This document shows, piece by piece, positions 46,631 through 56,412 of a stretch of DNA of 64,000 nt. The stretch covers positions 1-64,000 of the IMG/VR virus record IMGVR_UViG_3300035428_000130. One strand, 5' to 3'. The translations under genes were made by a program, and so were the position numbers. Below the pieces are notes generated by a model that saw nothing but the letters and a program-made list of their open reading frames with translations, ran no database searches and had not been told where the DNA came from. Positions within the stretch are counted from its first letter, which is position 1. Each line of letters opens with the position of its first letter. The DNA comes from a virus (lineage: Duplodnaviria > Caudoviricetes).

Positions 46631-47393
46631 TGCAAAACCTCCACTTAAATATCTTTCTGATTAGCGCTTTTCCAACCTTGTCAAACACATAGCTGAATAG
46701 CATAATCACAATAATTGCACCGAATACAACTGCGGTTTTGCCTCTTGCGGAGCTAACATTAATGATAAACCCAAGGCCATATTTAGCATTTGTGGCCTCT
46801 ACAACGGCGCAGTATGTCCACCCGATTCCATAGATGACAAGGAAGTTGTTACAGATGGAAGGTAGTGCCGCTGGTAAAAGAATTTCTTTGATTGTCTCCC
46901 AACTTGTCATGCCTATGGTTTTTCCTGTTTCCATTAAATCTGGCGGAACTTCATCAAAGCACAGCAGAACAGACGGTAGTAGATATACGAATGTCGCCAG
47001 GAAAAGAAATGATATTTTCATTTTTTCGCCAATGCCAAACCATAGAATCAACAGTGGCGAAAACGCTGTAACAGGCACATACCTCAAAAATGAAATTACA
47101 GGCATAATCGTTTCTTTTAGCGGCGCTATTCCATAGATAAGGAGAGCAAGTGGAACAGCAATTGCCATAGAGATAAACGATGCAGTCGTAATTCGCATGA
47201 ATGAATACAGCAACCCATTTGAAAGCTGACCTGTTTCAGCGAGTCCAATCACCGCTTTGAACACAGAGGCGGGAGATGGAATAAACATTGGCTTTGTAAA
47301 AAGCGATGCTATGTGCCAGACCGCCATAAAGCAGATAAGAAGCGTAATTCCACGGAAAAATTTCTTTGCCCTTTGGCCCACGCTATTCTTCAC
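46614..47393 (-). CDS. ABC transporter permease (TauC/SsuC-like)
   Basis: Multiple TM segments, PLLILWFGIGE, EAA-like loop. Confidence 0.9.
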   Translation of the reverse strand: MKNSVGQRAKKFFRGITLLICFMAVWHIASLFTKPMFIPSPASVFKAVIGLAETGQLSNGLLYSFMRITTASFISMAIAVPLALLIYGIAPLKETIMPVISFLRYVPVTAFSPLLILWFGIGEKMKISFLFLATFVYLLPSVLLCFDEVPPDLMETGKTIGMTSWETIKEILLPAALPSICNNFLVIYGIGWTYCAVVEATNAKYGLGFIINVSSARGKTAVVFGAIIVIMLFSYVFDKVGKALIRKIFKWRFCNDTVE

Positions 47394-47404
47394 ATAACAT
47401 CACC

Positions 47405-47677
47405 TCACAGTAAACTTTTCAGGCCATCAATAGCATTATTCATACCAGCGATACGGCCTTGAATGGATTCGATTGTTTCTTTTATTTCGCTCTTATCGTT
47501 TGGGATATAATATCCTTTGCCACAAGAGCAGATTGGATCGCCAGCGCTTCGAGCCTCGTTAATCAGTTTCCGAATGGACACTTGAGATATAGAGAAAGCT
47601 GTTGCAAGTTTACTTCCGCAAATTGGCGCTTTCTTTCCATTGGAATGTGCCATAATGTATTTGGTAATGAACTGCAT
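47405..47677 (-). CDS. Winged-HTH protein
   Basis: LATAFSISQVSIRKLINEAR..G.PICS..GYY. Confidence 0.7.
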   Translation of the reverse strand: MQFITKYIMAHSNGKKAPICGSKLATAFSISQVSIRKLINEARSAGDPICSCGKGYYIPNDKSEIKETIESIQGRIAGMNNAIDGLKSLL

Positions 47678-47699
47678 AACTACCCTCCCTTTAAGTGGA

Positions 47700-47723
47700 G
47701 CGGGCGGCGGTTAAGCCGCCCGC
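47700..47723 (-). terminator. Hairpin downstream of the DUF2828 gene
   Basis: GCGGGCGGC-GGTTAA-GCCGCCCGC. Confidence 0.55.
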
Positions 47724-47730
47724 CTTGCTT

Positions 47731-49308
47731 TTACAGATAGCTCAGAGCCTTGCCAATGGGCGCATACCGCTCACTGTTCAAAGTCTCCAGCAAGCACTCG
47801 TAGGGATCAGTCCTGCCGCTCATGACCATCTTGACGATGTTGGTGCTAAACCCGCTAACCAGGGCAACCCCCAAATCATTCTCGATGACAGGAATGGTGC
47901 CAGTACGGGAGTTGACGTTCCAGAACACCATTCTGGGAATCTGGTAGCCAGCCTCGGCGTAGCGCTTGGCAATCGTTTGGAACAGCTTGGCATTAGGACG
48001 ATTGCCGCCATAGCCGCCATAGCCATAACCACGACGAGCCGCACCACATGTAGCGCAACTGTCAAACTCCATATCAGAGATGATAAGGATGTTCTGGGGC
48101 AAGTCCTCCTGCGCCATATTGTTCTTGACCGCCGTAGAGAGAATCAGATCAAACACCGCCTCGATGTTGGTATTTGCCACCTCATTGTGCTGCAAGGCAA
48201 TCTGAATCTTCTCTCGAAGGTTCTTGCCGCTACTCAGATTGACAAGCTGAGGATGCTCGGAGAAGGTGATGTACTGATCCTTGAACTGGCCGGAAGAACG
48301 CTCAGCAAAGTAGATTGCCAGGGCATTAGCGACCTCCAGTGCGGTAGTAGAGGTGCCACCAACAGTGGTAGTCATACTGCCGCTTCCATCGGCCACAACA
48401 ATGGTATTGCCGCAGCCCTGTACCGTATCGGGGAGGGACTTCCATAGAGCCTCCAAGGTCTGATCCAGAGGCTTGAGACGGTCACGCCCCCAACCGTCGC
48501 CCATCATGTACTTACTCACAACATCGTGAGGATACAGAGTAGAGGCGTTGATCTTCACCTCGCCCTTTTCCAGAGCGGCCAGGAAAGCGCGACGGCGATC
48601 CTCGTCATTGCGCAGAAACGCATTGTTGTAAATCAGGTTCGCACGAGAGGGCACAGCCTCATACCTGATTGTATCCCAGGTGCGGGCGGACATTTTGCGC
48701 TCCACCACATCCAACTTCTTACGCAGACGAGAGAGTGTCTTGCGGTAATCCCGCTCAGTAACGCCAATATACTTGAAGATCTTCTTGGCGTATCGCTTGG
48801 TAGTGGGAGAGGACGCATTGGGAGAGGGGAGCCACTTCGCCAGAAGAGAGATGTTCTCGCCCTTGCTGGCTGCTTTCACATCCTCCACCAACTGCTTCTT
48901 GACCAGTGCCATCACATTGTCGGCCAGCTCCGTGTCCAGCAGGCTCCACAGGTCATCATATCTGCCGTACTCAGGCACCAGATTGATGAGAGGGATGATG
49001 TACTCGGGATTGGACACCGCCATCCGCTCAAACACAGAGCGGAACAACCGGCGCTCGCCCAAGCCACCACGTACATCGCGGGCGAAGAACAGCCACTTCA
49101 TGGCCGTTACCTTGTCCTCAAAGAACGCCCGCATAAAGCGGTCATAGATATCCTTGGGATTGGCCCGCCGCAGAGAAGCCACAGCGAAGTTGATATCCAA
49201 CAGTTCCTTGCCGGAGGTACGATAACCAACAGCGCCGTTCTCGGTGACAGACACGTTGAACTCATCGTTCAAAGTCCCCTTGACCGCAGACATAAAATTC
49301 TTGCTCAT
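47731..49308 (-). CDS. DUF2828 family TROVE/Ro60-like helical domain + vWA protein
   Basis: TENGA, RDVRGGLGER, YGRYDDL, AKWLP, VPSRA, DGSGSM MIDAS, ISDMEFD, FWNV, VSGFS. Confidence 0.88.
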   Translation of the reverse strand: MSKNFMSAVKGTLNDEFNVSVTENGAVGYRTSGKELLDINFAVASLRRANPKDIYDRFMRAFFEDKVTAMKWLFFARDVRGGLGERRLFRSVFERMAVSNPEYIIPLINLVPEYGRYDDLWSLLDTELADNVMALVKKQLVEDVKAASKGENISLLAKWLPSPNASSPTTKRYAKKIFKYIGVTERDYRKTLSRLRKKLDVVERKMSARTWDTIRYEAVPSRANLIYNNAFLRNDEDRRRAFLAALEKGEVKINASTLYPHDVVSKYMMGDGWGRDRLKPLDQTLEALWKSLPDTVQGCGNTIVVADGSGSMTTTVGGTSTTALEVANALAIYFAERSSGQFKDQYITFSEHPQLVNLSSGKNLREKIQIALQHNEVANTNIEAVFDLILSTAVKNNMAQEDLPQNILIISDMEFDSCATCGAARRGYGYGGYGGNRPNAKLFQTIAKRYAEAGYQIPRMVFWNVNSRTGTIPVIENDLGVALVSGFSTNIVKMVMSGRTDPYECLLETLNSERYAPIGKALSYL

Positions 49309-49327
49309 AAATGCTTCCTCCTTAAAA

Positions 49328-49344
49328 GTGAATTAGTTAATTTC
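49328..49344. promoter_or_regulatory. Repeated AT-rich motif, copy 6
   Basis: GTGAATTAGTTAATTTC upstream of the DUF2828 RBS. Confidence 0.65.
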
Positions 49345-49363
49345 TTTTGCTTTGCAAACTCCA

Positions 49364-49423
49364 AGACACTTTAGCTACCCATTCAGTATGAGTTTTGCTA
49401 ACTACTTTTTGCTGTATGTGTCC
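49364..49423 (-). ncRNA. ACAGCAA-module RNA A (stand-alone)
   Basis: GGACAC-AT-ACAGCAA ... GTGTCT closing stem; inner TTAGC/GCTAA and ACTCAT/ATGGGT stems. Confidence 0.7.
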
Positions 49424-49439
49424 CAGAGGAAGCGAAAAC

Positions 49440-49523
49440 GAGAGGCAAATTCAAAGGGTTTGAACCTTCTCATATCAGCTATGTAGCTAATACTTTAACC
49501 ATTAAGATTGCTGTACGCCTCTC
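49440..49523 (-). ncRNA. ACAGCAA-module RNA B enclosing tRNA-like D, anticodon and T arms
   Basis: GAGAGGC-GT-ACAGCAA...GAAGG-TTCAAAC-CCTTT...GCCTCTC. Confidence 0.7.
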
Positions 49524-49646
49524 TATATTGTTTGGCCTATTGTGGCCTAAACCACACAATCAATTTACATTCCCTCTTTCCTTTAGATTGCCATTTCTAC
49601 CAACTTTTTAGAGACTGTTTGAATGGCGAAGTCAACTCATACCCTC

Positions 49647-49771
49647 GGTGCGACAGGTGGGACTCGAACCCACGAATGGCGGCTTGGCTTATTTTTGATC
49701 TTGCTGTTAGTGAATCTTCCCGACTCACATTTTTTTAATGGCCGCTGTCTTAGCCCCTTGACTACTGCCGC
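49647..49771 (-). ncRNA. tRNA-like RNA C, 57-nt ACAGCAA insert in place of the anticodon loop
   Basis: Acceptor GCGGCAG/CTGTCGC, anticodon stem GCGGC/GCCGC, T arm GTGGG-TTCGAGT-CCCAC. Confidence 0.8.
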
Positions 49772-49822
49772 ATAGAGGCTACCAGCTATTGCAAATCACT
49801 GATAGCATATCCCCAGCTATTA

Positions 49823-49990
49823 CCGCACTGTGGAAAACTGAGGGCAACCACCCTTCCGGCATTTTGGAATGCCAGTTGACTACCTCTGGATTCTATATCA
49901 CAGACCCAGTAACACTCCACCCTATCAGCCTTAGGTGAATAACGCTTTGTTTATCGCTTATAGCTCAGCGGACTCATTACGCCAGTGCGG
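49823..49990 (-). ncRNA. Unidentified ~168-nt multibranch structured RNA
   Basis: Closing stem CCGCACTG/CAGTGCGG and several internal stems; no convincing ORF. Confidence 0.55.
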
Positions 49991-50012
49991 GCAAGGAGAG
50001 TTCTATCCTTTC

Positions 50013-50130
50013 GGTGCCAGGGGTTGGACTCGAACCAACGACCACGGGATTACAATTCCTTGAAAAATTGCTGTTTACGCCTTTAGACAAGGCACGTTAT
50101 TACGCGCTCTACCACCTGAGCTACCCTGGC
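50013..50130 (-). ncRNA. tRNA-Thr(UGU)-like RNA D, 43-nt ACAGCAA insert in the anticodon stem
   Basis: GCCAGGG/CCCTGGC-ACC, canonical D and T arms; excising the insert gives CGGGA-ATTGTAA-TCCCG. Confidence 0.8.
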
Positions 50131-50134
50131 ATAT

Positions 50135-50250
50135 TGCGGGCAAGCAGAATCGAACTGCTAACCATCTGTCCCTCAAACATCTTTGCTGTTAGTGTCGTTA
50201 AACGACACATTTTGTTTTTACAGATGCTCTATCCATTGAGCTATACCCGC
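50135..50250 (-). ncRNA. tRNA-like RNA E, 50-nt ACAGCAA insert in place of the anticodon loop
   Basis: GCGGGTA/TGCCCGC, GCTC-AATGGATA-GAGC, TCTGT/ACAGA, AGCAG-TTCGATT-CTGCT. Confidence 0.8.
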
Positions 50251-50256
50251 ATTTTA

Positions 50257-51282
50257 TCACGCAACAAATAGAGACTCCGCAAATTTGTCCATCTCTGTGA
50301 TTAGCTTATAGCAGTTTCCATGTGAAGCATGATTTTTCCATGATAGATATTTTTCGTCAAATTTTGCTCTGGACATCTTTCCGGCCTGAACCAGTTTTGC
50401 ATTTGTGCGGAGACGCTTTTTGATTTGACGCTTATTGTCGCCTGTCAACTTACGAATCACTTTGCCATCATCCGTCAGATAGGAGTGAAAACCAAGGAAA
50501 CGAATGCCTTTTTGCATTGGTACAATCTCGGTTTTATTGTTCAGCTCCAGTTGCAAGTCTGCTAAATATGCCTTAATCTGTATTAGACATTCTTGCAAAT
50601 ACTCTTTGCTTTCGGCTAACAGGTAAAAGTCATCCATATATCTGCCGTAGTATTCACAGCCCAGATTTTCTTTAACAAAGTGATCCAGGCCGTCCAGAAA
50701 CATCAGCGCAAAGACCTGACTACATTGATTTCCAAGTGGTAATCCGCAACCCTCAGTGCTGTCAATGAATAAGTCGCAGATCCATTGGATATCTACATCA
50801 TCAAAATACTGTCTCACGCATTCTTTCATAGCTTTGTGGTCAATGCTATAAAAGAACTTTGCTATATCACATTTAAGTATATAGCCATTGCAACCATGCT
50901 TGTCATAGAAAGAAAGTAAATTTTCTGACAAGCGGTTTAGTCCGAACAAGGTTCCCTTGCCTGTTTGACCTGCGTAATTATCCAGAATAAAGACATCTTT
51001 CAGCTTAGGAAGTAACACATAATCGCACAGGCAATGTTGGAGAACCTTGTCACGAAAAGAACCTGATTTGACAACCCTTCGTTTCGGCTCAGAGACAATA
51101 AATTCAGTATACGCACCGATTTTATATGTATGGTCTATCAACTGGCGTTTCATCACGCACAAGTTTTCTAAGGCCAGCACATTGAACCTTATTGCGCTCT
51201 GTCTTTTCCCTTTGCCTTTCAGAGAAACTTTGCAGGAGTTATAAAGGTTTCCAAAATCGACTAACTTCTGAAAGTCGCTCAT
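50257..51282 (-). CDS. DGR reverse transcriptase
   Basis: EPKRR, FRDKVLQH, LKCDIAKFF, LPLGNQCSQ (SQ motif), YMDD; no maturase/endonuclease domain. Confidence 0.95.
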   Translation of the reverse strand: MSDFQKLVDFGNLYNSCKVSLKGKGKRQSAIRFNVLALENLCVMKRQLIDHTYKIGAYTEFIVSEPKRRVVKSGSFRDKVLQHCLCDYVLLPKLKDVFILDNYAGQTGKGTLFGLNRLSENLLSFYDKHGCNGYILKCDIAKFFYSIDHKAMKECVRQYFDDVDIQWICDLFIDSTEGCGLPLGNQCSQVFALMFLDGLDHFVKENLGCEYYGRYMDDFYLLAESKEYLQECLIQIKAYLADLQLELNNKTEIVPMQKGIRFLGFHSYLTDDGKVIRKLTGDNKRQIKKRLRTNAKLVQAGKMSRAKFDEKYLSWKNHASHGNCYKLITEMDKFAESLFVA

Positions 51283-51393
51283 TTGCTTTTGTATTTATCC
51301 CGCAACCAGCGAGAAAGGTTATGTACTCTTTTGATAGTGTGGCGCACTCCTTGTAACCGCCGAAGCAGTTTATAGACCTCGCTAATCCACCAG

Positions 51394-51473
51394 AACGGGC
51401 GAACGTCGTTGCTGTAATCACAGTCATTCCAGTTCAGAATGCCATTGGAGTTGACGTAGCAAACGTTACGAGC
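51394..51473 (-). repeat. DGR template repeat (TR)
   Basis: 80 nt, AAC/AAT-rich, between avd and RT. Confidence 0.93.
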
Positions 51474-51503
51474 TTCAGCACATAGCCTAAAGGAGAAGTC
51501 AAA

Positions 51504-51869
51504 TCAGGATTTTCGCCATGCGAGAGTCATGAATTTTACATCATGAGCGAGATTTGTCCAGGTTTCACCTGTAGCCGCACTGATTAGATGAGCATGGAGG
51601 CTGTATTTTGTTAGGCTGAGGAACTTGTTGCACTTTGTAATGGCGCTGGTCTGAAAATCAAACCGTTTATTCCGTTGAGATACGGTATCTGTGCGGAACG
51701 AATTTGCGTCCATCACATCACTGTGAATACCAAGCGCATACTTTTGAAGCTGATCTGCCAGACGGCGAAATTTTGTGGGATAGTGTTCCCGATTTGTTGT
51801 CAAATCGAACACACTGAAATACAGTTCTTCCGCCTTGTCGCCTATATCAAACTTGACCTCACTGCTCAA
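51504..51869 (-). CDS. avd: DGR accessory variability determinant (Avd-like four-helix bundle)
   Basis: 121 aa, YPTKFR..L...L, AN, ends AWRKS; position in the cassette. Confidence 0.8.
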   Translation of the reverse strand: MSSEVKFDIGDKAEELYFSVFDLTTNREHYPTKFRRLADQLQKYALGIHSDVMDANSFRTDTVSQRNKRFDFQTSAITKCNKFLSLTKYSLHAHLISAATGETWTNLAHDVKFMTLAWRKS

Positions 51870-51876
51870 TTGCTAC

Positions 51877-52488
51877 TCAAGAAACCAAGATTGAAGAATT
51901 CAAAATACAAAACGGGCGAACGTCGCAGCTGAAATCACAGTCACTCCAGTACAGAAGGCCACGGGAGAAGACGCAGCAAACGTCACGAGCATAGCCAGTG
52001 TCCTCGTCATGCGTCACTCTGGTCGCCGTCCACCACGGCTCATCCATAGCGGGCAGATACTCTCTGTAGCGGCGGTACAGCTCGGTTGTCAGAATCGAAA
52101 CATTGTCCTTACAGGAGATTCCCTTGCCGGTTCCGTCATCGGCAACCAGCTTGACGGTATGCTGTACGATGTTCTCAGCACCAATCGCAGCGGCCAGCTC
52201 CTTATAGAAATCGCCATTGCAGTAGGAGCGGACATCACTCTTGCGCCAGTCGCCATTGCCGCCGAAGGACATACGCTTTACAGAATCCTTGACAAGCACA
52301 GCCGTCGTTTCTGCGCCATGGCCCAGGACATAGAACTCACGACCTCCCAGCTTCGTGATCCCGCCGCACTTGATGTCGCCAAGCGTCAGCACTTTCTTCT
52401 CCGTCAGCAGAATAGATACGCTGCCATCCGCAGACTTGTTGAGCGTCACATCGACGTTCGGGATGTTGTTCTGAATATTGATGTTCAT
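51877..52488 (-). CDS. DGR target protein (DUF6273-like / C-type-lectin-like C-terminus)
   Basis: W..SDVR..CN..F, WWTAT, C-terminal VRP; carries the VR. Confidence 0.88.
   Translation of the reverse strand: MNINIQNNIPNVDVTLNKSADGSVSILLTEKKVLTLGDIKCGGITKLGGREFYVLGHGAETTAVLVKDSVKRMSFGGNGDWRKSDVRSYCNGDFYKELAAAIGAENIVQHTVKLVADDGTGKGISCKDNVSILTTELYRRYREYLPAMDEPWWTATRVTHDEDTGYARDVCCVFSRGLLYWSDCDFSCDVRPFCILNSSILVS
51911..51990 (-). repeat. DGR variable repeat (VR)
   Basis: 80 nt, 12 mismatches to the TR, all at TR adenines. Confidence 0.93.
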
Positions 52489-52519
52489 TGCGATACCTCC
52501 AAATCACATAATTAACTTC

Positions 52520-52626
52520 GGTGAGCCAGGGCGGGACTCGAACCCGCTTCTGTAGATTAAATGTCCAGTGTGTACACACCGTCGGCAGCGCTACCGATAC
52601 TGTTTTACCCATAAACTATCCCAGCC
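52520..52626 (-). ncRNA. tRNA-like RNA F with an insert between D arm and anticodon-like arm (no ACAGCAA)
   Basis: GGCTGGG/CCTGGCT, GTTT/AAAC D stem, GCGGG-TTCGAGT-CCCGC. Confidence 0.6.
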
Positions 52627-52782
52627 ATATTGGTGTTGGGTGATAGGCTTCACCACATCCCGCTTACCTATCCTTACGCCCAACTCGTACAATTGTGCGG
52701 GTCTTTCGGTGTGGATTCCGTCCGACTTTACGGATGGTACGTCTACCAGTTTTGCAAAGAAAGGAAGGACGTACATGTACGC

Positions 52783-52896
52783 TGGTGCAGAGGGGAGGAC
52801 TTGAACCTTCGACATACAGAATTCACTTTAATATTGCTGTCTGTGCCAATCTCGACACGTTTTTGTCTGTTGCTCTACCAACTGAGCTACCTCTGC
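52783..52896 (-). ncRNA. tRNA-like RNA G, 45-nt ACAGCAA insert in place of the anticodon loop; encoded CCA
   Basis: GCAGAGG/CCTCTGC-ACCA, GCTC-AGTTGGTA-GAGC, ACAGA/TCTGT. Confidence 0.8.
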
Positions 52897-52956
52897 ATCT
52901 CTGTTATAACTACCTGTTAGAATGAATATCTGCTAACCAGAAAGTTAAATCGGCTT

Positions 52957-53066
52957 TGGGGAGCTACGGAATCGAACCGTAAGCAAAAGATTTGCATTCT
53001 TTTTAAGTAACATTGCTGTTAGTGTCCGCCGATCATTACACTTTGAGCCGCCCTCCAGACGCTCCC
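52957..53066 (-). ncRNA. tRNA-like RNA H with the ACAGCAA module 5' of a GCA (Cys-like) anticodon arm
   Basis: GGGAGC/GCTCCC, AAAGA-ATGCAAA-TCTTT, TACGG-TTCGATT-CCGTA. Confidence 0.65.
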
Positions 53067-53151
53067 AGGTTGCCGCACTTACACGGCAGTAGCGGTCTTT
53101 CCCGTCGTCACGCACTCTTACTTCCGAATTGCCATATTGCCCTTATACGGC

Positions 53152-53235
53152 TGGTGCCGCTGAGGGGAGTTGAACCCCTACGCCATAAGCAGCCGAGCTT
53201 AAATCGGATGTGTCTTCCAGTTCCACCACAGCGGC
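53152..53235 (-). tRNA. tRNA-Leu(TAA)
   Basis: Full cloverleaf, loop TTTAAGC, long variable arm, ACCA end. Confidence 0.88.
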
Positions 53236-53438
53236 ATATAATCGAGCAAGGTACGGGCCATACTCCCATACAATAGGCGAACCTATTTTGTATTCGCTTC
53301 ATCTGAAATAAGCAGTTGACACAAAATGTAGGAGGTGAATAATGGAAAGAGGAAAATGGAGGTGTCATGAATCAAAACAGTTATGCTTATTACGCTCAGA
53401 TTATCGAATAGGCTTTCTCTTTGCCTACTTGCTCTTGG

Positions 53439-53528
53439 TGGCGAAGCAGACAGGACTCGAACCTGCACACCCTTTCGGGCTACTGACGGTTTAGCAAACC
53501 GTTGCCTTACCATTAGGCTTACTGCTCC
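53439..53528 (-). tRNA. tRNA-Ser(GCT)
   Basis: Full cloverleaf, ACGGT-TTGCTAA-ACCGT, long variable arm, GCCA end. Confidence 0.9.
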
Positions 53529-53536
53529 ATAAATAC

Positions 53537-53602
53537 AAGGCGCTTAAAAAAGAGTGTTCGTTTATCAGTCAAATTCTTCTTTATAATTGCTGTATGCGCC
53601 TT
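53537..53602 (-). ncRNA. ACAGCAA-module RNA I (stand-alone)
   Basis: AAGGCGC-AT-ACAGCAA ... GCGCCTT. Confidence 0.7.
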
Positions 53603-53611
53603 AATGCTGGG

Positions 53612-53812
53612 TTATAGAAGCTTTGCTTTTGATGCTGGCACAACGCCTCTTGCCTTATACCAGATCATTGTGCCATCTTCATAATGGATATCGTATGGGT
53701 AATCACGATCTGCCGGATTAACCTGCTTTACCGTTCCAAAGCCATACTTCTTGTCGTAAACTCTATCCCCAACCTTGAACTTAGGCTTGAACTCTTTTAC
53801 GGTATTCCTCAT
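53612..53812 (-). CDS. Small SH3/KOW-like beta-barrel protein
   Basis: KFKVGDRVY...GFGTV...YDIHY. Confidence 0.6.
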   Translation of the reverse strand: MRNTVKEFKPKFKVGDRVYDKKYGFGTVKQVNPADRDYPYDIHYEDGTMIWYKARGVVPASKAKLL

Positions 53813-53837
53813 ATTTTATCTCCCTTCGGATTGGAAC

Positions 53838-53894
53838 ACGGCACACCACAAATATAATTTCAAGTTATATGTAGAATGTTGCTGTTAGTGCCGT
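53838..53894 (-). ncRNA. ACAGCAA-module RNA J (stand-alone, with an anticodon-like hairpin)
   Basis: ACGGCAC-TA-ACAGCAA ... ATATAA-CTTGAAA-TTATAT ... GTGCCGT. Confidence 0.7.
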
Positions 53895-53906
53895 TGACTT
53901 CTTGGA

Positions 53907-54197
53907 TTACTCCGCAGCCTCTACACTGAGAAGCTTGGAGAAGTTGGCGATAATGGCAGCGTTATTGCTACGCTTCTTAGCCATTGTCTCGCGGGTCTGA
54001 GCCAATTCAGCGGCGTATTTGTCAATATCCGCCATTGAATCAGAGATTTGCTGATTAATCAGCTCCAGGCCAGAAATGGTACGGGTAACAAGGTCAACCG
54101 CCTCATCAGCTTCACGCTCCAGCAGAGCAATCTCTGTCTGCTTCTCTTTCAGAATGTCATGCACAGCAGGAGCAGGAGTAGGTGTGGTCTTTCTCAT
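53907..54197 (-). CDS. Coiled-coil hypothetical protein
   Basis: GGAGG RBS, coupled to the upstream gene. Confidence 0.65.
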   Translation of the reverse strand: MRKTTPTPAPAVHDILKEKQTEIALLEREADEAVDLVTRTISGLELINQQISDSMADIDKYAAELAQTRETMAKKRSNNAAIIANFSKLLSVEAAE

Positions 54198-54484
54198 ACA
54201 GCTTCCTCCTTTTCACCAGAATCTTGTGACATATCGGCATCCTGAGAAGCCTCAGCCTTTTTCTTTGCCCCGTCCTTATCCCAATCACAGTCAGAGGGCT
54301 TAATCAAAGCCAGATAACCGTCGCCATTGAGGTAGGTAGTTAGGGGGCGAACCTCACCAGGAGGTTGATTGCGTCGGCATCCCTGCTTGGCGAAGTTAAG
54401 GAACTTACAGCCATTACAGGTGTGTGCCCTCGGCACCCAGTAGTAACCGCTCTCTCGTTTCGTGTTTTGCTTTTGATCTGCCAT
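54194..54484 (-). CDS. Hypothetical protein
   Basis: CxxC motif; RBS. Confidence 0.6.
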   Translation of the reverse strand: MADQKQNTKRESGYYWVPRAHTCNGCKFLNFAKQGCRRNQPPGEVRPLTTYLNGDGYLALIKPSDCDWDKDGAKKKAEASQDADMSQDSGEKEEAV

Positions 54485-54508
54485 CTTCTACACTCCCTTA
54501 TTTATTAT

Positions 54509-54760
54509 TTAGGCCACTGCGGTCTTCTTTGGTCGTACTGGCAGTAGAAATAGAAACGGCCAAGGTTTCACGCCACCAGTATTAGGTGTATCCAATAAAG
54601 GCTTTCCACACTGGGGGCAGTATTGAAACCGCATATGGCGACCCGCACTGTCAACAAAGATATTGGTTCCTATTTCAATGTGGGCACATCCTAAGCTATC
54701 GTCAGATGTCCCAAAAGCTAAGAACTCACGACCTTTTTGACAGTATTCGCATCCACTCAA
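54509..54760 (-). CDS. Zn-ribbon hypothetical protein
   Basis: CEYC...YCPQCGKPL. Confidence 0.6.
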   Translation of the reverse strand: MSGCEYCQKGREFLAFGTSDDSLGCAHIEIGTNIFVDSAGRHMRFQYCPQCGKPLLDTPNTGGVKPWPFLFLLPVRPKKTAVA

Positions 54761-54852
54761 ATTACACCACCTCTTTTATCAATCATTATCCGTTCGGGAG
54801 TCGAACCCGCCCTCTTAAAAGTCCACCGGAACTTATTCGGACATATCTTAGA

Positions 54853-54869
54853 ATGAATTAATTAAGTTC
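54853..54869. promoter_or_regulatory. Repeated AT-rich motif, copy 7
   Basis: ATGAATTAATTAAGTTC. Confidence 0.55.
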
Positions 54870-54895
54870 TTCTGTGAACTTAAAGGCTTTCGCCT

Positions 54896-55867
54896 TTAAG
54901 CTTCCTCTTTAGAGGGAGGTGTATAGGTTGGGAAGAAATGCTCTCTGAATAAATGGTAATCATATAACCGCCGATTAGCAAGCGCTACTGTGGAATATTT
55001 CTCACCAAATATTTCTTCAATCTTTGCTACATCATTGGCTTGGATAACGCCGTATGTGCGCTCGTAGATGTATGCACGACTATATACGCCAGACCAATAA
55101 ATTTTATCGTAGTTAAATAGGTTCTTGGATTCCTCGGAGCTATTGCCAAACTGATTTATCGAAATCCTAAGACGCTGCCCTTGGTCAAATCGGTCGCACC
55201 TGGTATTTCTTAACAGCCATTCACTGGGCACATACTTTAAGGTGATAATAGCTCGCCCCAAAGATTTATACTCGGTTGCGTCACGATAATCTTTGATATA
55301 CTCCATGATTTGCGTAATCGGCCTAATTGTTTTACCAGCCGTTACAATGCAATCGTCAAGCACCTCAGACTTTTTAACTTGCATGGCTTCTTCGATTGTC
55401 AAACCGCACCAGGCCAAGTAAATCGCTGTAATCGCTGTTCCGAATATCGCATCGTCAACCCGTTCTGCGGCAATCAATGTGCTATCAATTGCATCCTGCA
55501 AGCTTGGAAAGTCTTTGAAGTATCTGCTGTCGTAGTAACCAGCAACTTTGAGATCCTTGATTGTGACGGCCTTTAGAGCTTTGACACAATCGTCAGAGAT
55601 AAGCCCCGCTGCATTGATATATTCGACATACTGCAATATCTTAGATTTCATCACAGTAAGCACCGGAATTGTCGCAACGTTTAGCCGCTCCAAAAGATTG
55701 ATATAGTCCTCCTTGCCATATCCATCTTCTAAGGTCTTTTCAAGAGCTTCTTCGGCCTTTCCAATCCGTTTCCAAATATCTTCAAAGGTTCGGATCGACA
55801 ATTCCGTGAATCTATAGTCGCTCACATAGGATTCTATAAACTGGCGACGGTAACTACTGTTATCCAC
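54896..55867 (-). CDS. Tyrosine-recombinase-fold protein, MrpR (SPbeta YopR)-like repressor candidate
   Basis: 323 aa; box-I-like LAWCGLTIEE lacks the catalytic Arg; own promoter; near the immunity region. Confidence 0.6.
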   Translation of the reverse strand: MDNSSYRRQFIESYVSDYRFTELSIRTFEDIWKRIGKAEEALEKTLEDGYGKEDYINLLERLNVATIPVLTVMKSKILQYVEYINAAGLISDDCVKALKAVTIKDLKVAGYYDSRYFKDFPSLQDAIDSTLIAAERVDDAIFGTAITAIYLAWCGLTIEEAMQVKKSEVLDDCIVTAGKTIRPITQIMEYIKDYRDATEYKSLGRAIITLKYVPSEWLLRNTRCDRFDQGQRLRISINQFGNSSEESKNLFNYDKIYWSGVYSRAYIYERTYGVIQANDVAKIEEIFGEKYSTVALANRRLYDYHLFREHFFPTYTPPSKEEA

Positions 55868-55921
55868 GTCCCACCCTCCTATTCACTTGCGAAGTTGTTT
55901 AATTAAATCCTTGTTGAGTAT

Positions 55922-55950
55922 AATATAGCACATGAGAGCCGACTTGTCAA
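55922..55950 (-). promoter_or_regulatory. SigA-type promoter of the MrpR-like gene
   Basis: TTGACA-17 bp-TATATT with extended TG. Confidence 0.7.
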
Positions 55951-55980
55951 TAGGGTTTAATTAATTTGTTTCAACTTTTT

Positions 55981-56412
55981 TTACCCACCCTTCCAAGCCG
56001 CATACGCCTCAGCATAATACGAACAAAGTCCAACTTCAACTCCGCTTCCGTTTACAAAGAAAACGTCCAAAATCGCTTTGATCTCTGCTGCGTCCAAGAC
56101 CAGGAATACCCGGCCATCTACACGATCCCCGTCCGTAGTGTTAATGTGCAAGTAAGCCGTTGTATGTACAACTTTTTTCTGTACATTGAAAAACACTTCG
56201 GCGGAAAGGTTCTGCACCATCTGATCGTAGCGCCATACTCCATAGTCCAGGCCACAGCCCTTTTGGAGCAAGATAAGGTTTTGCGCCTCCACGCAAATAT
56301 CGCCCCACAGCTCTCCAGTATAGGGCAAGACAATCCGACGAGAATCGGTGCTCACCATTCCAAAATCGGCGGGCGTAACACTTCTCTGCTCACAACCGTT
56401 TCTTACATTCAT
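55981..56412 (-). CDS. Hypothetical protein
   Basis: First ORF after the leftward switch promoter; no motif recognised. Confidence 0.4.
   Translation of the reverse strand: MNVRNGCEQRSVTPADFGMVSTDSRRIVLPYTGELWGDICVEAQNLILLQKGCGLDYGVWRYDQMVQNLSAEVFFNVQKKVVHTTAYLHINTTDGDRVDGRVFLVLDAAEIKAILDVFFVNGSGVEVGLCSYYAEAYAAWKGG

What the first reader, a model, noticed from the sequence alone, without database searches (positions are those of the whole stretch)
47731..53894. Ro60/TROVE-like DUF2828 gene next to nine ncRNAs sharing a helix + NN-ACAGCAA module (candidate phage Ro/Y-like RNP system)
Seen: ACAGCAA occurs nine times on the - strand in non-coding RNA elements within 4.5 kb (at 49409, 49508, 49701, 50068, 50183, 52834, 53013, 53587, 53879). 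Each copy lies exactly 2 nt 3' of one strand of a short helix: GGACAC, GAGGC, GATTCAC, AGGCGT, CGACAC, TGGCAC, GGACAC, AGGCGC, CGGCAC. The helix sequence varies but pairing is kept, which amounts to covariation. The array lies directly upstream of, and co-oriented with, a DUF2828 gene. Established: Ro60/Rsr proteins (TROVE + vWA) bind Y RNAs encoded nearby, and bacterial YrlA RNAs contain tRNA-like domains. Inference: the module is the binding site of the DUF2828 protein, which would be loaded with a family of different tRNA-like effector RNAs.
Basis: partly seen in the sequence, partly recalled or inferred. Interest (0 to 1): 0.92.

Follow-up and report, generated by a model that had tools for sequence, protein, structure and literature searches.

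The report
Ro60-like phage protein, nine partner RNAs
A mouse-gut phage encodes a ring protein predicted to fold like the RNA-surveillance protein Ro60, preceded by nine small RNAs that share one short "handle" (a 7-bp stem plus ACAGCAA) fused to tRNA look-alike parts; this gene-RNA pairing recurs in hundreds of phages and prophages, so the RNAs are most likely the protein's partners, a pairing I found in no paper or in Rfam.

Summary
All nine ACAGCAA copies lie where stated, 2 nt 3' of a helix strand. A tenth copy, at 51409, lies in an unrelated DGR template repeat.

The module has two circularly permuted forms:
- Open: a 7-bp stem AAGRCRC/GYGYCUU closes a 25-50 nt interior that often holds an anticodon-arm look-alike.
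- Closed: a hairpin, often with a GNNA loop, is inserted just 5' of the anticodon loop of cloverleaf tRNA-likes.

The DUF2828/DUF7788 protein is predicted to fold like Ro60: all top structural hits are Ro60 (Z 10-14) and the MIDAS motif is intact.

Co-occurrence holds in both directions:
- 117 of 149 DUF2828-seeded loci carry a strict module within 1.5 kb upstream on the gene strand (355 modules on the gene strand, 12 on the other).
- About 49 of 59 module-seeded phage records encode DUF2828. None of 20 chance-pattern loci does.
- No other protein neighbour is conserved.

G·U excess over A·C and the GNNA loops place the structure in RNA. Rfam gives only tRNA. The handle equals the 11-nt motif of Dictyostelium Class I RNAs, but RF01414 scores below threshold.

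Binding and discrete transcripts remain untested. This scan has already found the same system on other DNA many times. Verdict: a new variant of the Ro60/Y-RNA particle.

The parts
47731..49308 (-). Gene for a 525-aa DUF2828/DUF7788 protein predicted to have a Ro60-like fold (HEAT-repeat ring + vWA domain with intact MIDAS)
   Evidence: Pfam. PHROG 850 'RNA-binding protein' at 6e-139. AF2 model with pLDDT 75. Foldseek top 12 hits all Ro60/TROVE. VIA Z 10-14 over 363-417 residues. Invariant D307, S309, S311, T380, D412.
49360..49426 (-). Open handle RNA 9, in the 5' leader of the DUF2828 gene (stem GGGACAC/GUGUCUU, AU, ACAGCAA at 49409)
   Evidence: R1 model 26.4 bits, E 6e-4. Fold -17.9 kcal/mol, z -2.6.
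49437..49525 (-). Open handle RNA 8 (stem GAGAGGC/GCCUCUC, GU, ACAGCAA at 49508); its interior holds a T-arm-like hairpin
   Evidence: R1 33.7 bits. Fold z -3.6. The T-arm-like stretch repeats that of a tRNA-like (D11).
49649..49771 (-). Cloverleaf tRNA-like C with a closed handle (GUGAGUC-GGGA-AGAUUCAC-UA-ACAGCAA at 49701) 5' of a GCC-type loop
   Evidence: Rfam tRNA 44.7 bits with a 56-nt insert. Fold z -3.1. The loop GCCAA/UCCAA is conserved in orthologues.
50015..50128 (-). tRNA-like B: the closed handle (ACAGCAA at 50068) is inserted in the 5' strand of the anticodon stem between nt 28 and 29; the loop AUUGUAA is intact
   Evidence: ARAGORN with introns allowed. Sequence reading and compensatory changes in orthologues.
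50135..50250 (-). tRNA-like A with a closed handle (GUGUCG-UUUAA-CGACAC-UA-ACAGCAA at 50183) 5' of the loop UUGAGGG
   Evidence: Rfam tRNA 52.1 bits with a 50-nt insert.
52786..52896 (-). tRNA-like D with a closed handle (ACAGCAA at 52834)
   Evidence: Rfam tRNA 54.5 bits with a 44-nt insert.
52950..53072 (-). Degenerate tRNA-like E (acceptor-like GGGAGC/GCUCCC, T-arm ACGG-UUCGAUU-CCGU) with a 4-bp handle helix and ACAGCAA at 53013
   Evidence: Sequence reading. Fold. Orthologues covary GUGU/ACAC to GUGC/GCAC.
53534..53604 (-). Open handle RNA 2 (stem AAGGCGC/GCGCCUU, ACAGCAA at 53587), immediately 5' of tRNA-Ser
   Evidence: R1 50.3 bits, E 7e-10. Fold z -3.0.
53835..53896 (-). Open handle RNA 1 (stem ACGGCAC/GUGCCGU, ACAGCAA at 53879); its interior holds the hairpin AUAUAA-CUUGAAA-UUAUAU, which looks like a Ser(UGA) anticodon arm
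   Evidence: R1 52.1 bits, E 3e-10. Fold.
53152..53528 (-). Two ordinary tRNA genes within the array (tRNA-Leu UAA 53152-53235, tRNA-Ser GCU 53439-53528), without a handle
   Evidence: ARAGORN. Rfam tRNA 49-55 bits.

Best explanation
This is a phage version of the Ro60/Y-RNA ribonucleoprotein. The DUF2828/DUF7788 protein is a divergent Ro60-type ring (HEAT-repeat TROVE-like domain plus vWA/MIDAS). The nine RNAs are its cognate partners. Each carries the same portable handle: a 6-7 bp helix with consensus AAGRCRC on the strand that precedes a 2-nt spacer and the invariant single-stranded ACAGCAA. I infer that the protein recognises this handle through the inner end of the helix plus the heptamer. 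The rest of each RNA is exchangeable cargo derived from tRNA. The cargo is either a whole cloverleaf, with the handle displayed beside the anticodon loop, or a bare anticodon-arm look-alike or T-arm enclosed by the handle stem. The array and the gene are co-oriented and probably co-transcribed. The tRNA-like parts would then allow processing by tRNA enzymes and give stability, as shown for bacterial YrlA. The copy in the gene's own leader could allow feedback. Shown here: the motif, its RNA-level pairing, the fold prediction and the genomic coupling. Inferred: binding, co-transcription and the downstream role.
For: Protein:
- The top 12 Foldseek hits are all Ro60/TROVE (E 4e-8 to 5e-5).
- VIA gives Z 10.1-14.1 over 363-417 residues spanning both domains. 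Phage phiLo Ro60 is the best hit, and vWA-only hits reach only Z 9.1 or less.
- The MIDAS residues DxSxS...T...D are invariant in 19 homologues.

RNA:
- In the seed alignment (rows preselected for a paired stem), 7 of 7 helix pairs show compensatory changes and 0/500 shuffles reach the observed covariation score.
- Helix frequency peaks sharply at a 2-nt spacer.
- In helices with one odd pair, G·U occurs 150 times against 34 for A·C. Of 92 closed tetraloops, 64 are GNNA.
- The folds close on the handle stem.

Coupling:
- A strict module lies within 1.5 kb upstream on the gene strand in 62/79 viral and 55/70 genomic loci seeded on DUF2828. In 92 of these it lies within 250 nt.
- There are 355 modules on the gene strand against 12 on the other. 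Scrambled heptamers give 5-14.
- R1 hits are 70/70 and 24/24 on the gene strand.
- Many apparently negative loci carry the array just downstream, or lineage-specific heptamer variants.
- Seeding from the RNA side, 33 of 60 model-confirmed loci have DUF2828 in the fetched flank. Of 25 further records searched whole, 15 carry it elsewhere on the contig, including 8 of 9 records that are at least 90% complete. None of 20 chance-pattern loci has it.
- Among 27 DUF2828 lineages, no other protein neighbour is shared by more than 7.

Precedent:
- Ro60 genes have adjacent tRNA-like Y RNAs in more than 250 bacteria and phages (PMC4201824).
- Phage phiLo Ro60 binds two upstream Yrl RNAs (PMC12135203).
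Against: - No binding data exist.
- There is no sequence-level match to TROVE (Pfam PF05731 is not hit at E<=10) or to Ro60 chains in the PDB. The model is of middling confidence (pLDDT 75, TM 0.4-0.46).
- The handle bears no resemblance to the Ro60-binding helix of Y/Yrl RNAs, and Rfam Y-RNA families do not match.
- ACAGCAA is internal rather than at a free end, so it cannot simply thread the ring as misfolded RNA ends do in Ro60.
- One small phage record rated complete carries a lone module and no DUF2828.
- In Dictyostelium, the only reported direct binder of RNAs with this same motif is an RRM protein, Rnp1A (PMC7919456).
- Discrete transcripts are not shown. RNA-run contigs span the whole region and may be DNA.
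Confidence: 0.65

Rival explanations
1. The handle is recognised by some other factor, such as a host RNA-binding protein or ribonuclease, or it is a small self-cleaving or processing element. It would serve to dice or stabilise the polycistronic tRNA/tRNA-like transcript. The Ro60-like protein would then act on the tRNA-like parts, or on other RNAs, and would be linked only because it belongs to the same RNA operon.
For: - Handles flank or sit inside tRNA-type units and lie between genes, as processing signals do.
- Circular permutation is typical of small ribozymes (hammerhead, twister; general knowledge).
- Handles also occur far from the DUF2828 gene on the same contigs and once without it.
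- The Dictyostelium RNAs with this motif bind an RRM protein (PMC7919456).
Against: - No known ribozyme or processing family matches.
- Only about 12 positions are conserved and there is no conserved multi-helix core.
- The tight, strand-specific coupling to DUF2828 across 27 lineages, with no other conserved protein neighbour, is then unexplained.
- The handle in the gene's own leader fits a protein-binding operator better.
Confidence: 0.15
2. The closed modules are removable intron-like inserts of functional phage tRNAs. After excision, normal tRNAs (Thr/Asn/Lys, Gly and others) would be released. The open copies would be relics or free copies of the same element.
For: - In type B, removing the insert between nt 28 and 29 restores a 5-bp anticodon stem and a canonical 7-nt loop with U33 and A37. 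The split stem covaries among orthologues.
- ARAGORN calls five 'intron-containing' tRNAs when introns are allowed.
Against: - The insert position differs between types (28/29, 29/30, 31/32 and near 37/38).
- Types C and D would keep A33 or G33 after any simple excision.
- The inserts are 43-56 nt, far below self-splicing group I size.
- No splicing endonuclease, RtcB or RNA ligase is found in the (75% complete) record.
- Most handles are not in tRNAs at all (150 open against 120 closed).
Confidence: 0.05
3. The motif works at the DNA level, as a promoter, operator or recombination site with an inverted repeat.
For: - Open copies often precede genes or tRNAs.
- AT-rich interiors contain -35-like words in some orthologues.
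Against: - G·U outnumbers A·C 150 to 34 on the gene-sense strand, and GNNA tetraloops predominate.
- The helix sequence varies freely with compensation.
- Strand bias is 355 to 12.
- Copies lie inside tRNA-like cloverleaves.
- Sigma-70-like matches in the region are at background level (10 found against 9.2 +/- 2.6 in shuffles).
Confidence: 0.02

Closest known systems
Ro60 (Rsr/TROVE2) with Y RNAs: bacterial and phage YrlA/YrlB (Chen et al. 2014, PMC4201824) and Thermus phage phiLo Ro60 with Yrl1/Yrl2 (PMC12135203; PDB 9KOP, 9L5Y)
   Same: - A ring-plus-vWA protein (predicted fold).
- Small RNA genes lie next to the gene and are co-oriented with it.
- There are several RNA paralogues per genome.
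- The RNAs are modular, combining a stem-based protein-binding part with a tRNA-like part.
- The system occurs in phages.
   Different: - The protein is not detectable as TROVE by sequence (it matches DUF2828/DUF7788).
- The handle (AAGRCRC stem + NN + ACAGCAA) is unrelated to the Y/Yrl Ro-binding helix, and Rfam Y families do not match.
- There are up to nine members here, not one to four.
- The handle occurs in two permuted topologies, including insertion into the anticodon stem of a full cloverleaf.
- YrlA mimics the D, T and acceptor arms and lacks an anticodon arm. The minimal RNAs here keep only an anticodon-arm look-alike.
- No rtcBA-type repair genes were found in this record.
Dictyostelium Class I RNAs (Rfam RF01414; Kjellin et al. 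2021, PMC7919456)
   Same: - The architecture matches the open form: 42-65 nt, a 5'/3' terminal 6-bp stem, then C-UU-ACAGCAA (the 11-nt motif CCUUACAGCAA), a U-rich continuation, a variable interior and a 3' stem followed by UG.
- In the alignment of four Class I RNAs with eight phage modules, the C before the spacer and all of ACAGCAA are invariant.
   Different: - They are eukaryotic, dispersed genes with their own promoter (DUSE).
- They were reported as unique to Dictyostelia, and their function is unknown.
- The known direct binder is the RRM protein Rnp1A.
- They have no tRNA-like cargo and no closed form.
- The Rfam model scores only 12.2 bits here against a cut-off of 41.5.
- Whether Dictyostelium has a DUF2828 protein was not tested.
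Phage tRNA gene clusters, and tRNA genes with inserts
   Same: - The units sit among ordinary phage tRNA genes.
- Five units score 27-55 bits on the tRNA model, with acceptor, D and T arms.
- The anticodon-type loops obey the tRNA rule linking position 36 to position 37.
   Different: - A 43-56 nt handle-bearing insert sits beside or inside the anticodon stem.
- Several loops lack U33.
- The minimal members lack D and T arms altogether, so decoding by the ribosome is unlikely.

Membership tests
Ro60 / TROVE protein family | TROVE domain detectable by sequence (Pfam PF05731) or similarity to solved Ro60 chains | tested here: not met
   Pfam at E<=10 lists DUF7788, DUF2828 and VWA_2, plus vWA_Ro60 at only 0.019, with no TROVE hit. 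phmmer and a 19-sequence profile against PDB sequences find no Ro60.
Ro60 / TROVE protein family | Fold: HEAT-repeat ring followed by a vWA domain | tested here: met
   AF2 model (pLDDT 75.4, pTM 0.67). Foldseek ranks 1-12 are all Ro60/TROVE, probability 1.00. VIA Z 10.1-14.1, rmsd 5.2-6.8 A, 363-417 residues aligned across residues ~3-519. This is a prediction, not a solved structure.
Ro60 / TROVE protein family | MIDAS motif (DxSxS ... T ... D) in the vWA domain | tested here: met
   D307, S309, S311, T380 and D412 are invariant in 19 homologues of 37-77% identity.
Ro60 / TROVE protein family | Binds adjacent stem-containing small RNAs | not testable with these tools
   Only genomic coupling is shown.
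YrlA / Y RNA (Rfam Y-RNA families) | Match to the curated covariance models | tested here: not met
   cmscan in E-value mode over 47000-56000 (E<=1) and over five related loci (E<=0.1) returns tRNA only, plus unrelated sub-threshold noise.
YrlA / Y RNA (Rfam Y-RNA families) | Modular build: a protein-binding stem plus a tRNA-like domain, encoded beside the Ro60 gene | tested here: met
   The handle stem is combined with cloverleaf, T-arm or anticodon-arm cargo, directly 5' of the gene. The arrangement of the modules differs from YrlA.
Dictyostelium Class I RNA (RF01414) | Terminal stem plus the adjacent conserved 11-nt motif CCUUACAGCAA, length about 60 nt | tested here: met
   The motif is listed in the paper's supplementary code. 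The alignment with phage modules keeps C + NN + ACAGCAA in register. Open modules are 55-90 nt.
Dictyostelium Class I RNA (RF01414) | Score above the Rfam gathering threshold | tested here: not met
   The best match is 12.2 bits at 53550-53594 (-), against a cut-off of 41.5.
tRNA (RF00005) | Cloverleaf with a canonical 7-nt anticodon loop (U33, purine 37) and an uninterrupted anticodon stem | tested here: not met
   Five units match the model only with a 43-56 nt insert. Types C and D have A33 or G33. Type B has the insert inside the stem.

The most novel reading that the evidence does not exclude
The Ro60-like ring loads a library of handle-tagged anticodon-arm and tRNA decoys. The anticodon types are mostly Lys-UUU, Ser-UGA, Asn-GUU, Pro-UGG and Cys-GCA, and they obey the tRNA 36/37 rule. 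The phage would use these decoys to soak up or misdirect host tRNA-targeting defence nucleases or tRNA-modifying enzymes. The same handle-protein pairing would also be the missing explanation for the Class I RNAs of Dictyostelium.
Probability: 0.15. Interest if true: 0.9.

Novelty: new variant of a known kind. Interest (0 to 1): 0.77.

Why it matters
DUF2828/DUF7788 is a large family with no assigned function. A profile search finds 9,126 clusters at 50% identity, and the family is also annotated in plants. This finding gives it a concrete, testable ligand: a 16-nt RNA handle.

It extends the Ro60/Y-RNA principle to a second, sequence-unrelated protein-RNA pair, which is common in gut phages and in prophages of Oscillospiraceae, Lachnospiraceae and spirochaetes. 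It also shows an unusually modular RNA design: one handle in two permuted topologies, joined to interchangeable tRNA-derived cargo.

The handle links phage RNAs to the Dictyostelium Class I RNAs, which are published as unique to social amoebae and of unknown mechanism.

Prophage copies exist in cultured isolates (Dysosmobacter segnis BX15, Hominicoprocola fusiformis CLA-AA-H269, Lachnospiraceae bacterium COE1). The binding and function tests are therefore feasible.

Tried and rejected
- **Expression.** The only RNA-labelled runs are kept as assembled contigs. Contigs of 7-31 kb span the whole stretch, so they may be phage DNA and show no transcript ends. One 543-nt contig over 49883-50126 has depth 3569 against about 160 beside it in one metatranscriptome. 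That is a weak hint at best.
- **Anti-Shine-Dalgarno idea.** The 5' flank of the leader handle is complementary to the ribosome-binding site in this window (CTTCCTC against GAGGAAG) and in a few lineages. Across 75 loci the mean longest complement is 3.8 nt, against 3.5 in controls, so this is not supported.
- **RNA-repair context.** No RtcB, RNA ligase or CCA-adding enzyme was found in the own record, which is 75% complete.
- **Conserved protein partner.** No conserved protein partner was found near the gene.
- **Promoter and terminator scan.** Matches are at background level.
- **tRNA-intron reading.** It fits type B only.
- **Sequence-level link to Ro60.** No sequence-level link to Ro60 was found.
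- **Literature.** Searches for DUF2828, phage Ro60/Y RNA and anticodon decoys found no description of this pairing. The Avesson 2011 pull-down paper is not in the library.
- **ESM Atlas.** It returned only viral DUF2828 clusters.
- **Not done.** I built no separate covariance model for the closed form and detected it by pattern only.

Full report
**Setting.** The window is part of a single 100,965-bp virus record (GC 44.5%, CheckV completeness 75%). It encodes DNA polymerase III alpha, NrdD, a primase-helicase and NAD-salvage genes. Public runs that hold the stretch are mouse-gut samples. The nearest cellular copies of the key gene are in Oscillospiraceae and other Clostridia.

**Observation.** ACAGCAA occurs 25 times in the window against 13.0 +/- 3.4 in shuffles. 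Ten copies are on the - strand between 49409 and 53879.
- The copy at 51409 is part of a diversity-generating retroelement. The template repeat at 51391-51473 matches a variable repeat at 51908-51990 at 84%, and apart from one edge position the displayed mismatches fall at T on the + strand, which is A on the coding strand.
- That element sits between an Avd-sized ORF and a reverse transcriptase. It splits the RNA array but is otherwise unrelated.

**Anatomy.** The module has two topologies that are circular permutations of each other.
- Open form (53835-53896, 53534-53604, 49437-49525, 49360-49426): the strand before ACAGCAA is the 5' strand of a 7-bp stem. That stem closes an interior of 34-61 nt here and usually 25-50 nt elsewhere.
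- Closed form: the same strand is the 3' strand of a small hairpin, and the module is embedded in a cloverleaf. The Rfam tRNA model matches 52786-52896, 50135-50250 and 49649-49771 at 45-55 bits, but only with a 44-56 nt insert at the anticodon arm.
- Type B (50015-50128): the insert sits inside the 5' strand of the anticodon stem, between nt 28 and 29. A local 3-bp stem and a normal loop (AUUGUAA here; CUGUUAA or CUUGUAA in relatives) follow it. The split stem changes by compensation among orthologues.
- The unit at about 52950-53072 is a degenerate tRNA-like with a 4-bp handle helix.
- Consensus over 215 unselected sites: A-A-G-R-C-N-C/Y, then U/A-N, then ACAGCAA, then a U-rich stretch.

**RNA, not DNA.**
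- In a 38-sequence alignment of open modules, all seven stem pairs show changes on both sides and no shuffle reaches the covariation score. The rows were preselected for a stem, so the 100% pairing is by construction.
- Three measures are free of that bias. Of 347 distinct ACAGCAA sites upstream of DUF2828 genes, 215 have a strict 7-bp helix at a 2-nt spacer, against 18-98 at other spacers.
- Helices with one odd pair show G·U 150 times and A·C 34 times on the gene-sense strand. Of 92 closed tetraloops, 64 are GNNA.
- Single-sequence folds close on the handle stem and leave ACAGCAA largely unpaired.

**Cargo.** Of 297 distinct open modules, 111 contain a hairpin with a 4-bp or longer stem and a 7-nt loop of the form Y-U-NNN-R-N. 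Shuffled interiors give 17 on average and at most 29.
- The most frequent 'anticodons' are UUU (22), UGA (14), GUU (8), UGG (7), GCA (7) and GCU (6).
- The loops follow the tRNA rule. When position 36 is G, position 37 is G in 15 of 22 cases. When position 36 is U or A, position 37 is A in 76 of 83 cases (a smaller set).
- Some open modules enclose a T-arm (49437-49525) or a whole tRNA-like unit.
- The cargo is therefore derived from tRNA, or imitates it, while the handle stays constant.

**The protein.** The 525-aa product matches Pfam DUF7788 and DUF2828 and PHROG 850 'RNA-binding protein'.
- It has no sequence-level match to TROVE or to Ro60 chains.
- An AlphaFold2 model built from 19 homologues has pLDDT 75.4.
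- Foldseek ranks twelve Ro60/TROVE entries first (E 4e-8 to 5e-5).
- VIA-align gives Z 10.1-14.1 over 363-417 residues spanning both domains. Thermus phage phiLo Ro60 is the best hit. The next class of hits covers the vWA domain only, at Z 9.1 or less.
- The MIDAS residues are invariant.
- The family is large: 9,126 clusters at 50% identity at E<=1e-3.

**Coupling, seeded on the protein.** In 62 close relatives, ACAGCAA clusters on the gene strand in the 2 kb upstream. Two further DUF2828-seeded samples were taken, 80 viral and 80 genomic loci at 41-76% identity.
- A strict module lies within 1.5 kb upstream on the gene strand in 62/79 and 55/70 loci, and within 250 nt in 48 and 44.
- There are 355 modules on the gene strand against 12 on the other. 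Scrambled heptamers give 5-14.
- The covariance model R1 (open form) hits 32 of 40 distant viral loci, 70/70 hits on the gene strand. In the genomic sample it gives 24/24 on the gene strand.
- Lachnospiraceae prophages that R1 misses carry two closed-form tRNA-likes directly upstream.
- Many remaining 'negatives' have the array just downstream of the gene, or carry lineage-specific heptamer variants: ACCGCAA, UCAGCAA, ACAGCAG.

**Coupling, seeded on the RNA.** A pattern scan of IMG/VR for one stem variant of the open module returned 80 loci.
- Sixty carry R1 hits.
- Thirty-three of these encode a DUF2828 homologue (37-97% identity) in the fetched flank, usually with the module immediately 5' of the gene.
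- Of 25 further records searched whole, 15 have the gene elsewhere, including 8 of 9 records that are at least 90% complete.
- None of the 20 loci without an R1 hit, which are chance matches, has the gene.
- Across 27 DUF2828 lineages at 70% identity, no other protein neighbour is shared by more than seven.

**Known families.** Rfam 15 reports only tRNA in the window and in five relatives. Ro60 genes with adjacent tRNA-like Y RNAs are established in bacteria and phages (PMC4201824), and phage phiLo Ro60 binds two upstream Yrl RNAs (PMC12135203). I found no paper describing DUF2828 as their counterpart or describing this handle in phages.

Earlier notes of this scan gave a lead. I checked it.
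- The conserved 11-nt motif of Dictyostelium Class I RNAs is CCUUACAGCAA, placed directly after a 6-bp terminal stem in RNAs of 42-65 nt (PMC7919456, text and supplementary code).
- Four such RNAs align in register with the phage open modules, with the C before the spacer and all of ACAGCAA invariant.
- The Rfam model RF01414 scores only 12.2 bits here, against a cut-off of 41.5. The phage RNAs therefore share the handle but are not members by the curated test.

**Mechanism.** The best reading (confidence 0.65) is a Ro60/Y-RNA-type particle.
- The ring protein binds the handle.
- The tRNA-derived cargo gives processing, stability and perhaps the interaction surface.
- The leader copy may give feedback.
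- What the particle does is open. The predominance of anticodon-arm look-alikes suggests a link with factors that recognise anticodon loops, for example decoys for tRNA-targeting defence. I rate that at 0.15.
- The rivals are recognition of the handle by another factor or a processing role (0.15), removable tRNA inserts (0.05) and a DNA-level signal (0.02).

**Limits.** Binding and discrete transcripts are untested. RNA-run contigs are uninformative. The structural similarity rests on a prediction. This same system has been reported many times already by this scan on other DNA. That did not enter the scores.

Noticed in passing
window 50257-52488 (-): A complete diversity-generating retroelement sits in the middle of the RNA array. 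It comprises a 203-aa target gene (DUF6273) with its variable repeat at 51908-51990, a 121-aa Avd-sized ORF, a template repeat at 51391-51473 (84% identical; apart from one edge position, the displayed mismatches fall at template adenines) and a 341-aa reverse transcriptase.
   Followed up: partly
window 52524-52625 (-): A sixth tRNA-like unit (Rfam tRNA 26.8 bits, below threshold) has a 43-nt insert that carries a GUGU/ACAC-type hairpin but no ACAGCAA (it reads ...CACUGGACAUUU). It may be a decayed handle.
   Followed up: no
window 49780-50010 (-): About 230 nt of non-coding sequence between tRNA-likes B and C matches no model. In one metatranscriptome, a 543-nt contig over 49883-50126 has depth 3569 against about 160 for its neighbours.
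   Followed up: no
L243 3572 and 3646; L246 3456 and 3638; L335 2696 and 2802: Some DUF2828 lineages carry handle-like sites with a lineage-specific heptamer (ACCGCAA, UCAGCAA, ACAGCAG), each seen twice per locus. This could reflect co-variation of protein and RNA.
   Followed up: no
L235 5621-6213; also L233, L238/L239, L318: In several lineages the handle array (up to six copies spaced about 115-130 nt apart) lies directly downstream of the DUF2828 gene instead of upstream.
   Followed up: partly
L086 3360-3431: A 28.7-kb phage record rated 100% complete carries a single open module (R1 47.6 bits) and has no DUF2828 gene on the contig.
   Followed up: partly
window 47700-47723: A 9-bp all-G/C hairpin lies directly after the DUF2828 stop codon and is a likely terminator of the unit. 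The next ORF (47405-47677, PHROG 2113) has unknown function.
   Followed up: no
L019 7013-7045: A near-consensus sigma-70 promoter (TTGACA, 17 nt, TATACT) lies just upstream of the first handle RNA of that relative's array. This fits transcription of the array and the gene as one unit.
   Followed up: no
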